Below, in pieces: positions 13,811 to 17,562 of a stretch of DNA of 64,000 nt; position 1 is the first letter of the stretch; each line of letters starts with the position of its first letter. Source of the stretch: Eledone cirrhosa (Eukaryota); the NCBI GenBank assembly GCA_964016885.1, contig OZ024753.1, positions 5,580,001 to 5,644,000 on the forward strand, read 5' to 3'. Below the pieces are notes generated by a model. That model did not search any database and had not been told where the DNA came from. It worked only from the letters and a program-made list of their open reading frames with translations. The position numbers and the translations under genes are program-made.

Positions 13811-14698
13811 CCCCACCACCACCAACATCAACAGCAACACCACCACCACCACCAGCAACACCACCACCACCACCACCACCACTATACCACCACTATCACC
13901 ACCACCACCACCACCACCACCACTATACCACCACTATCACCACCACCACCACCACCACCACCACTATACCACAACTATCACCACCACCACCACCACCACC
14001 ACTATACCACCACTATCACCACCACCACCACCACCACCACCACCACCACCACCACCACCACACCACCAACAACAACAACAATCCATGTATATATTGCTAG
14101 AATATATGTTGTTTGATACCTTCCAATGGCAACATTAGAAGAACGCGAGATGTTTCTTTTTTTTTGTTGTTGCATAAACCTACGAGGTTTAACTACAGAT
14201 ATAGGAAAGATTGATGGGAATTAACAGATGTTGGATGTGTGAAAAGGATAGCGGTAAATGATAGAGTACACACACACACACACACACACACACACACACA
14301 CACACACACACACACACGCATACACACACACGCATACATACACACATACACACACACATGTACATATGTATATGTATGTATGAATATGTGTGTGTGTATG
14401 TATATATTTATGTTTGTATGTATATATGATATATATATATATATATGTATATATGTATGTAAAGGATAAAACATATATATATACATAAGCAGGCACGTAC
14501 AGACACATACACATACACATATCTGCCAATCTACCGATCTATCTAACTATATTTAGATATATAATATGAGGTAAAGTTTACATAAAGCTGCAATTCTTAT
14601 TGTCACTTTATATATATATATATATATATATATATATATATATATATATATATATATATATATATATAAGATCAAAAGATGGTTAAAAGAGTTCCATG

Positions 14699-14769
14699 TA
14701 TTTTATTATGCGCATTTCAAAAACAAATATCATCGTGCGATGACATTTGCGTTTTCGTCAGATAAAATA
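14699..14769 (-). ncRNA. type-I hammerhead ribozyme, canonical core
   Basis: TATTTTAT CTGACGA AAACGCAAATGTCATCGCACGATGATATTTGTTTTT GAAA TGCGCA TA ATAAAATA: 8-bp stem I, ~16-bp stem II, palindromic stem III ATGCGCAT, AUA cleavage triplet. Confidence 0.88.
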
Positions 14770-17562
14770 GGGAGACATGATATGAAGGTTAAAAAACACT
14801 TGTGAATAGTGCAGTTTTAAATCAACATATGAAAAGTAGTTTTAGATTGATGTGTGATATTGGGAAAAAATATGAGGGGGGTTGGGGGTTGGTCCTTCCT
14901 GATCCTATAACCATGCCCATTCCGAGGGGTGAGGATCCGCTAAGGTGAAACAATTGTTCTCGGTATGGTGAACTAACTGGTGTGTAACCACTTATATATA
15001 TATATATATATATATATATATATATATATATATATATATATATATATATATATATATATATATATATATATATATATATATATATATATACATATCTATA
15101 TATATTTATATATATATAGAGAGAGATGAATAGATAGATAGACAGACAAACAGACATAAAGATTGATAGATAGATAAACAGAGAAACATACAGATAGATA
15201 AATAAATAGATAGATATATGTATTTTTATGCATATTGATGAATGGAAACATAAAAAGAGAAAGCTTACTTGGTGGAGTAGTGAAACATATTCTAAAATAT
15301 ATTTTTCTTTGAAATATTAAAAAAATATTTTGTAAAAAGTCATAATACAAGTAAGAAAAAATCTGACATGGAGCATCTTAATTCTTTGAAACTGGTTGAA
15401 AAATATATTAATATCAACTTAAGCGAGGCAAATCTCAATATAATTTTCCACAATTAGAAGATCACAGACCCAGATTTAAAAAAAAAAAACGACGTGAAAT
15501 TATTATTTTATAAACTAATAAATTCATGTCGTTGTTATCAACGTTGTTTAGTATCATATCAGCTCTGCTCGTGTAGAGCTACGATCAAAGGCTTTCTTTC
15601 TGTGACCATCCCGCCTTATTAACCGTATCAATGCTTATGTTATAGAATGTCTCCTTTCATGTTTTATTTTATTTTTAAAAAAATGTTAACGAGTTATGGT
15701 ATATGACAATTGTCCAAGATGTCATGCAGTGAGATAGAACCCGAGACTTAATGAATGCGAAAGAATTTCTTTCATCACAAACATAGTTAAAAAAATTTAG
15801 TTTGTATTAATATTAATATTATTAATACAGTAATCTGTACAATTTTTATAAATAAAATGATGTCGAACTTATATAAGGGTTTCTGAAAAAGCAATGGAAT
15901 AATTTTTAATAAATTTATAAAGAATTGTTCTAAATTTTCTCAAAATGCCCTTGTAAAACCAGAGGGCATCTTATACGAAGGGGTGTCTCATAGGCCAGCA
16001 AATACTATATAAAATTAAACACAATATCTCTATACTTGGGTAAAAATTGCCCACAAAATACGTATTAAGCTAGAGTCGCTCTACATTATATCAAAACTTA
16101 AATAAATGTTATTGATAATAAATGTTGTATTGCACGGGAGCAAAATTATGAAAGAAAGAATTTCGTGTTTCTTTTATATATATATAAAGATCCTCAAATC
16201 AACCGCACACATTGTGATATAATATATATTGCAGATTTGCATATATAACGCATATATGTTCAAGTTATAGATTACAGATACGTTAAGTCTTTTGTTATAT
16301 ACATATACATACATAAAAACACACAAATATATAAACGTATTCATATATATACATATATACATACATTCAAACACACACACACACATATATATATATATAT
16401 ATACACACATTAACAAAGATACATATATATATGTGTGTATATAAACTTTTTGCTGTGCATACATATATTTGTGTATGTGCAGCACTATATGCATGTTTGT
16501 ATGCGTGTATGTATGTATGTTTGTATGTGTTTATATGCATTCACGTACGTATACATTCCTGTGTGTATGTATATGTATAATCTTCCAGTTCGTATGTGTG
16601 TGTGCTTGGCCTTTTGTACAAGATGAAACTCATTTCTCGTTATCTCAGAAAGACTGTCATTTTTCTATACAGACAGGGATTTGTCTTTCATTCGCTTAAC
16701 GCCACAAAAACCAAGATAAATCACTGTCCCAGATATCAGAATAAGATAATACGTTAAAAAATTGATGGAATAATTCTTCTGCCTGTCAATGGACTGTTAA
16801 CCATATAGTTTCAGTTTTATTTTCTCATTTTATTTTTTATAACAGTGTTTCGATAAAAAAAGAAAAAAAGATTCCGTGAGAATAAATAAAGTGAAGTGTA
16901 AGTATAAGTATACTTCTTGTGTTATTAATAGTCTTGAAGTATTTTGATAGCTGTATTAATGGAAAGACATGAACACATGTGATAGCGTCAATCTCTTGAA
17001 TGAACGCTGGCTGGCATTCACTGATTTGTGACATAACAAGTTTAAGATCGGAGAAAATTCAGAGCAGCAAATAAAACAAGATTAGATGCGACTTCTTTGA
17101 AAGTAACCACAAAGAAAAGATACTGACTGACTGAAGAAAACGTCGTCCAATTGAAATAGTCTGGCAACGAGTTCTCATGGGCCCAGCTTCACTCCAAATT
17201 TGTTTGTCCTTGTTGGTAGTGTTCTAAAGAGCCTAGAACTCTTCATTTGTCACCCTTGAGACAAAAAAAAAAATGAATAAAGAGTAGTGGATTGACAGAA
17301 TTACTAGGGTCTCGGGAAAAATACATTTTGGTATTCATCCCGCCTCTTTACGTTCTGAGCTCCAAACTATCCTCTTTTTGGTAATAAATCCGACTCCTAA
17401 CGTTTTGGGTTCTGAATGATGTCTTCTATTATTCTGATTTCATAGAATAACATACCAGTCAAGGACTGGAATGGATTAAATTGACTAACCCTCTTTTCTC
17501 GAAATTTGTGGTTTTGTGCTAACGAAATAAATCACTATAATTATTATAGTTGTTATTTTAAA

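What the first reader, a model, noticed from the sequence alone, without database searches (positions are those of the whole stretch)
14668..14992. Intact hammerhead (14699-14769, minus) in a 325-bp island between two TA tracts
It has a perfect 8-bp stem I, canonical CUGACGA/GAAA core, a long stem II, ATGCGCAT palindromic stem III and an AUA triplet. The stem I/core context (TTTTAT-CUGANGA-AA...TT-GAAAT...ATA-ATARAATA) matches the 56414 motif while stems II and III differ completely in sequence, which suggests structure-level conservation.
Basis: partly seen in the sequence, partly recalled or inferred. Interest (0 to 1): 0.75.

Follow-up and report, generated by a model that had tools for sequence, protein, structure and literature searches.

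The report
Fused tails of two Penelope retrotransposons
The hammerhead-ribozyme motif is really there, but it is the ordinary tail end of a very common Penelope-like jumping gene, joined back to back with the damaged tail of a second such family, and it likely cuts only when paired with a second copy.

Summary
The motif is confirmed: type I hammerhead at 14699-14769 (minus), intact core, predicted cut after A14707. It is not a lone ribozyme. Bases 14668-~14889 are the 5'-truncated 3' end of a Penelope-like element with Hydra-clade protein motifs (family A; 19,816 pattern matches in the genome). A near-full-length copy carries this hammerhead in both pseudo-LTRs, 3.58 kb apart, around an RT plus GIY-YIG frame. 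The claimed structure-level conservation holds: across 14 related motifs, 14 of 22 pairs show double-sided changes. Helix III is an 8-nt palindrome predicted to form only between two molecules. The A|B junction is unique among 40 scored hits and more likely arose from two insertions plus loss of the DNA between than from one event. Hammerheads in Hydra elements inserted in (TA)n are published (PMC8557442), and this scan has noted them before on other DNA. No RNA or cleavage evidence. Ordinary; low score.

The parts
14668..14889 (-). 5'-truncated 3' end (pseudo-LTR) of Penelope-like family A, ending at the short end point, without tail, in (TA)n
   Evidence: 96-99% identical to the 39 other best-scoring places listed first, over query 100-325; matches the last ~220 nt of the near-full-length copy L043 at 98%
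14695..14779 (-). Type I hammerhead motif: helix I 14769-14762/14706-14699 with predicted extension 14779-14776/14698-14695, core 14761-14755 and 14718-14715, 36-nt helix II region 14754-14719, palindromic helix III 14715-14708, predicted cut after A14707
14887..14894 (.). Junction of family A and family B fragments, head to head, with a short imperfect microhomology and no TA tract
   Evidence: only the window itself spans it among 40 scored of 416 candidates; no laid contig or read listed bridges it
14894..14992 (+). 5'-truncated 3' end of a second Penelope-like family (B), ending at its short end point in (TA)n
   Evidence: 94-95% identical to the best-scoring places; RT and endonuclease frames upstream in L032, L033, L036, L045, L046
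14911..14968 (+). Second type I hammerhead (family B), damaged in this copy: 2 extra G and G in place of C3 in the core; helix III palindrome ACAATTGT 14950-14957
   Evidence: 78 of the first 100 listed family-B matches have an intact core, none has an insertion (counted by eye)
14609..14668 (.). (TA)30 tract, insertion target side of the A arm
14993..15118 (.). (TA)63 tract, insertion target side of the B arm
56367..56563 (-).
   Evidence: 1,599 first-look candidates, 40 scored, 88-94% identity for the main hits

Best explanation
The island is two 5'-truncated tails of Penelope-like retrotransposons joined head to head in a TA microsatellite, and the hammerhead is the pseudo-LTR ribozyme of family A, which likely cuts only as a dimer and is likely a silent passenger in this copy. 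Shown: the parent element is pLTR-ORF-pLTR with the motif in both repeats, the two predicted cut sites 3,581 nt apart and the upstream one 115 nt before the ATG (counted). Inferred: a read-through transcript of a tandem element brings two motifs together, their 8-nt palindromes pair as a shared helix III, and cleavage would release a unit-length RNA; the element's own protein may help folding, as shown for an anole element. Inferred for this copy: it has no promoter, no frame and no cis partner, so it could cut only if read through and paired in trans with another family-A RNA. Inferred for the fusion (about 65%): an older B insert and a younger A insert in the same TA tract, with the DNA between them lost at a short microhomology.
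For: Repeat status: 2,304 first-look candidates for the island, 19,816 family-A pattern matches against 0 in the control, 82,732 matches of a wider pattern against 2. Parent element with YRDD, DKT, CNCPVKNKC, YFG, CNLC, CLH motifs and an RWI motif, fitting the Hydra description in PMC8557442 section 11 and resembling, by eye, the Hydra-1_Obim protein printed in its supplement. Covariation: 14 of 22 pairs with double-sided change, 92.2% of cells paired, 0 of 500 shuffles as high, slid controls 30-57%; RNAalifold gives the same helices I and II unprompted. Dimer: monomer helix III pair probability about 0.002; the cofold pairs the palindromes, -47.5 against -34.2 kcal/mol for two monomers. Two-step fusion: same-family two-armed inserts pair one long (tailed) with one short end in 33 of 36 classified cases, whereas this island has two short ends; B arm 4 differences in 99 nt, A arm 2 in 213.
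Against: No cleavage or expression data. The age difference between the arms is not significant (Fisher p=0.083). 2 of the 36 classified same-family inserts also scored short+short, and 6 of 26 B inserts could not be classified. 10 of 40 sampled B copies join a different repeat at their 5' end, which fits template jumps as well as deletions. The motif lacks the G10.1-C11.1 pair and the extra base before helix II described as typical of metazoan PLE hammerheads (PMC4209133). Pfam and PDB sequence searches did not recognise the protein, so clade placement rests on motifs, not on a tree. The 14 aligned motifs are related and were picked by me, so the shuffle counts are not probabilities. In the anole element the hammerhead was not needed for insertion in vitro (PMC11167929), so the processing role is itself unproven.
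Confidence: 0.88

Rival explanations
1. The A|B island arose in one insertion event: the two nicked strands of one TA tract were extended on RNAs of two different families and the two cDNAs were joined at a microhomology.
For: The island has the same tail-out, two-armed shape as same-family inserts (26 of 40 sampled B copies have a B arm); no TA at the junction; short microhomology; 10 of 40 B copies join a foreign repeat, one of them (L152) a tail-out hammerhead element of another family.
Against: Both ends are short, against long+short in 33 of 36 classified single-family inserts; the B arm is more diverged and damaged; the two RTs are only 36% identical; different families often stack in one TA tract (L032, L034, L038), which sets up fusion by deletion.
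Confidence: 0.2
2. The 325-bp unit is itself a non-autonomous mobile element or retrozyme that is copied as a whole.
For: It is bounded by TA tracts and holds two hammerhead motifs.
Against: Only the window spans the junction among 40 scored of 416 candidates and among 40 scored of 2,304; both halves run on into protein-coding elements elsewhere; no tandem array.
Confidence: 0.03
3. This copy has been taken over by the host as a regulatory, self-cleaving element in a transcript.
For: Core, triplet and palindrome are all intact.
Against: 89 of the first 100 listed family-A matches are just as intact (by eye) and the copy is about 1% from its relatives, so intactness is expected from youth; no recognisable host coding exon near it among stop-to-stop frames of 130 aa or more (by eye; short exons would be missed).
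Confidence: 0.04

Closest known systems
Hydra clade of Penelope-like elements, including Hydra-1_Obim of Octopus bimaculoides (Craig et al. 2021, PMC8557442; abstract, section 11, passages, supplement files S1-S2 part 2 and protein passages seen)
   Same: C-terminal GIY-YIG endonuclease without CCHH, DKT, CxCX5C linker, CxxC and CxH motifs, insertion into (TA)n, a type I hammerhead near the 3' end, inverted 5'-truncated arms and a tail at one end.
   Different: Unit length 3.58 kb against 'generally <3 kb'; RWI for RWK; helix II region 36 nt against about 10-23 nt in the Hydra rows of file S2 (counted by eye), with a conserved C-pyrimidine mismatch after 3 pairs; loop-less 8-nt palindrome; the motif's sequence is not that of Hydra-1_Obim; the two arms here come from two families.
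Minimal and palindromic type I hammerheads of metazoan PLEs (Cervera and de la Pena 2014, PMC4209133; parts 1-2 of 4 read)
   Same: Located in both pLTRs about 3 kb apart, mostly found as solo truncated copies, long helix II, small palindromic helix III, proposed dimer, pairs on opposite strands 100-700 bp apart.
   Different: No G10.1-C11.1 pair and no extra base before helix II; longer helix I; copy number (82,732 pattern matches) is about nine times the highest figure in the text I read (about 9,000, Xenopus tropicalis), though the search methods differ.
Poseidon element of Anolis carolinensis (Frangieh et al. 2024, PMC11167929; parts 1-2 of 4 read)
   Same: AT-rich target, two end points that define a tail, hammerhead close to the ORF start.
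   Different: There the ORF starts inside the hammerhead; here the ATG lies 115 nt after the predicted cut. That ribozyme cut only with the protein present and was dispensable for insertion in vitro; nothing of the kind is tested here.
Non-LTR retrozymes of animals (bioRxiv 10.64898/2026.07.22.740005, part 1 of 5 read; PMC7229834, search listing only)
   Same: Type I hammerhead, link to PLE pseudo-LTRs.
   Different: Retrozymes are non-coding tandem units; both halves here are ends of protein-coding elements and there is no tandem array.

Membership tests
Type I hammerhead ribozyme | Core CUGANGA...GAAA with NUH triplet | tested here: met
   CUGACGA, GAAA, AUA
Type I hammerhead ribozyme | Helices I and II, with the ends of the RNA in helix I | tested here: met
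   Folding and covariation across 14 motifs
Type I hammerhead ribozyme | Helix III | tested here: met
   Predicted only between two molecules: monomer probability about 0.002, cofold pairs the palindromes; self-complementary in 11 of 12 representatives of different sequence
Type I hammerhead ribozyme | Loop 1 to loop 2 tertiary contact | tested here: inconclusive
   A 6-nt bulge in helix I is predicted but helix II is far longer than in the canonical form; no partner identified
Type I hammerhead ribozyme | Match to an Rfam hammerhead model | tested here: not met
   No hit at gathering score or E<=10; a database match, not a mechanistic feature
Type I hammerhead ribozyme | Site-specific self-cleavage | not testable with these tools
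   Needs an in vitro assay
Hydra-clade Penelope-like element | [quoted passage not shown] | tested here: met
   L043: YRDD frame then YFG endonuclease frame; judged by motif, Pfam gave no hit; the copy has a stop and frame breaks
Hydra-clade Penelope-like element | DKT, CxCX5C linker, CxxC and CxH motifs | tested here: met
   DKT, CNCPVKNKC, CNLC, CLH; family B has CSCRKPEAC, CGLC, CPH
Hydra-clade Penelope-like element | N-terminal RWK motif | tested here: inconclusive
   RWI at the matching place (compared by eye)
Hydra-clade Penelope-like element | Insertion into (TA)n, pseudo-LTRs, inverted arms, tail, hammerhead | tested here: met
Hydra-clade Penelope-like element | Placement inside the clade on an RT tree | not tested
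   Published Hydra proteins were seen only as cut text in a supplement and were not used as queries; nearest database relatives (32-45% identity) are unnamed
Non-LTR retrozyme | Non-coding unit in tandem copies, each with a hammerhead | tested here: not met
   No tandem array; both halves continue into coding elements

The most novel reading that the evidence does not exclude
The island is a one-step hybrid: the two nicked strands of one TA tract were copied from RNAs of two Penelope families whose RTs are only 36% identical. That would show that the two arms of Penelope inserts come from two separate RNA templates and that families can be shuffled in trans, while the family-specific helix III palindromes keep ribozyme pairing within a family.
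Probability: 0.17. Interest if true: 0.5.

Novelty: new member of a known kind. Interest (0 to 1): 0.2.

Why it matters
As a single locus it matters little: it is one of about 20,000 look-alike motifs. As a sample of the family it offers a good test case for an open question, what the hammerheads of Penelope-like elements do: many related families with covarying helices, family-specific palindromes and a conserved C-pyrimidine mismatch in a long helix II that the Rfam models missed here. A genome-wide count of cross-family junctions and of their end types would show whether the two arms of Penelope inserts are copied from one RNA or two.

Tried and rejected
Rfam: no hammerhead hit. Pfam and PDB sequence search: nothing for the family-A protein pieces. 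Protein homologue search: 34 hits, all but one without an informative name. Sequencing runs: no RNA holder listed; laying 4 and 4 runs gave no listed piece that bridges the junction, which proves nothing either way. The repeat finder on the window was swamped by microsatellites. An energy evaluation of a hand-written dimer structure failed; the cofold result is used instead. A paired count of family-A motifs with the core fixed was not obtained, so intact fractions rest on the first 100 listed matches. Lunse et al. (PMC5785218) is not held; I know it only from its title and the summary in PMC6765202 (passages). Paper searches for cross-family or template-switch Penelope inserts found nothing relevant in the listings (0 papers; 15 of 21 listed); searches for octopus hammerheads gave only PMC8557442 as relevant. 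Supplements of the bioRxiv preprint and of PMC4209133 were not seen and may hold similar motifs. Whether family C (56414) is protein-coding was not settled: no RT or endonuclease hit next to its 19 sampled relatives within 1.5 kb. Rejected: chance motif, stand-alone retrozyme, host ribozyme.

Full report
Observation. The motif is as described: helix I 14769-14762 with 14706-14699, core CUGACGA and GAAA, a 36-nt helix II region (3 pairs, a C-U mismatch, 12 pairs, 4-nt loop), the palindrome ATGCGCAT and an AUA triplet with the predicted cut after A14707. A strict descriptor finds it once in the window and never in 200 local shuffles; a loose one finds only it and the 56414 motif, against 0.045 per shuffle. 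Its folding z-score alone is modest (-2.1), and no Rfam hammerhead model matches.

The island is two repeats. A search of the genome with the 325 bases gave 2,304 candidates, 40 scored; apart from the window itself the main hits cover only query 100-325, at 96-99%. The other 100 bases gave 1,269 candidates, 40 scored, main hits 94-95%. So 14668-~14889 (family A, minus strand) and 14894-14992 (family B, plus strand) are separate elements joined head to head, each with its 3' end in a TA tract. The join has a short imperfect microhomology and no TA and is spanned only by the window among 40 scored of 416 candidates. No laid contig or read listed bridges it, so it is unconfirmed outside the assembly.

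Family A is a Penelope-like element. Locus L043 holds a near-full-length copy: pseudo-LTR, ORF region, long 3' region, pseudo-LTR, with the hammerhead in both repeats. Counted, the two predicted cut sites are 3,581 nt apart and the first lies 115 nt before the ATG. The copy is broken by a stop and frame shifts. Its pieces carry RWI, DKT, YRDD, CNCPVKNKC, YFG, CNLC and CLH. Section 11 of PMC8557442 defines the Hydra clade by a C-terminal endonuclease without CCHH, RWK, DKT, CxCX5C, CxxC, CxH, hammerheads and (TA)n insertion, and lists an octopus member whose printed protein start resembles family A by eye. Pfam and PDB searches did not recognise the protein, and no tree was built. Family B has the same linker and endonuclease motifs and an RT 36% identical to A. 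That the host is a cephalopod is my guess and was not tested.

A second hammerhead. Family B carries a type I motif with a short helix II and the palindrome ACAATTGT; 1,476 matches genome-wide against 0 in the control, 78 of the first 100 listed with an intact core (by eye). The window's copy (14911-14968, plus) has two extra G and G for C3, so it is likely dead; C3G abolished activity in the anole ribozyme (PMC11167929).

Scale and conservation. With the core left free, the family-A pattern has 19,816 matches against 0; of the first 100 listed, 96 keep the core, 93 the exact palindrome and 89 core, palindrome and triplet together (by eye). A wider pattern that also takes the 56414 type has 82,732 matches against 2. 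On 14 motifs that I picked to represent different sequence types, 14 of 22 pairs show double-sided changes, 92.2% of cells pair, 0 of 500 shuffles reach that and slid controls give 30-57%; RNAalifold predicts the same helices I and II. C35 of the alignment, which mismatches a pyrimidine after the third pair of helix II, is invariant. Helix III differs between types but is self-complementary in 11 of 12 representatives. In four public DNA data sets the variants listed inside the motif fall at N7, helices I-III and none at the conserved core places (8 rows not shown). It reflects selection on active source elements, not on this copy, which is 2 differences in 213 nt from its nearest sampled relatives.

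How it likely works. In a monomer the helix III pairs have probability about 0.002; the cofold of two molecules pairs the palindromes at -47.5 against -34.2 kcal/mol, part of the gain coming from swapped helix I arms. This is the dimer model proposed for PLE hammerheads, with low activity in vitro (PMC4209133; PMC6765202 passages). A tandem transcript supplies the partner in cis and would be cut to unit length. Against a needed role, the anole ribozyme cut only with protein, was dispensable for insertion in vitro, and no RNA-seq reads ended at its site. The window's copy has no ORF and no cis partner, so I read it as a passenger.

Origin of the fusion. Two-armed, tail-out inserts are the rule. 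Of 40 B copies (the first 46 listed less three obvious same-family pairs), 26 have an inverted B arm (24 by script, 2 by eye), 4 abut simple repeat and 10 join a different repeat. The island has two untailed ends, and its B arm is more diverged (4 of 99 against 2 of 213, p=0.083). Different families often stack in one TA tract. I therefore favour two insertions with loss of the DNA between (about 65%) over a one-step cross-family event (about 20%). Paper searches found no description of cross-family Penelope arms in the listings.

Verdict. A real hammerhead motif, a new member of a known kind: the pseudo-LTR ribozyme of a Hydra-type Penelope-like element. The long helix II with its fixed mismatch, the high copy number and the cross-family join are side points, and earlier notes of this scan already record the first two on other DNA. 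Interest 0.2.

Noticed in passing
window 3212-6652, minus strand: Three tandem pairs of tRNA-Cys-like genes; two score as tRNA-Cys(GCA), two have an extra base and read as Ser(GCT), two are decayed. Looks like a duplicated block with pseudogenes.
   Followed up: partly
window 45309-45365, plus strand: Decayed family-B-like hammerhead end (82% to B) that stops in a (TC)n tract.
   Followed up: partly
window 57722-57994 (minus), 58190-58954 (plus), 12438-12848 (minus), 63543-63959 (plus): Further relics of Hydra-type RT or endonuclease frames; 57722-58954 looks like another two-armed insert.
   Followed up: partly
window 34569-35927: 20 copies of a 68-bp unit at 96% matches.
   Followed up: no
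   Followed up: no
L152 (G000:C1:65187824-65191266): A B copy whose 5' end joins a tail-out element of another hammerhead family with a long GC-rich hairpin; a second candidate cross-family join.
   Followed up: partly
window 40740-41786 and 59143-60201: Fragments of LINE-type elements (endonuclease-like and RT-like frames, named from recall).
   Followed up: no
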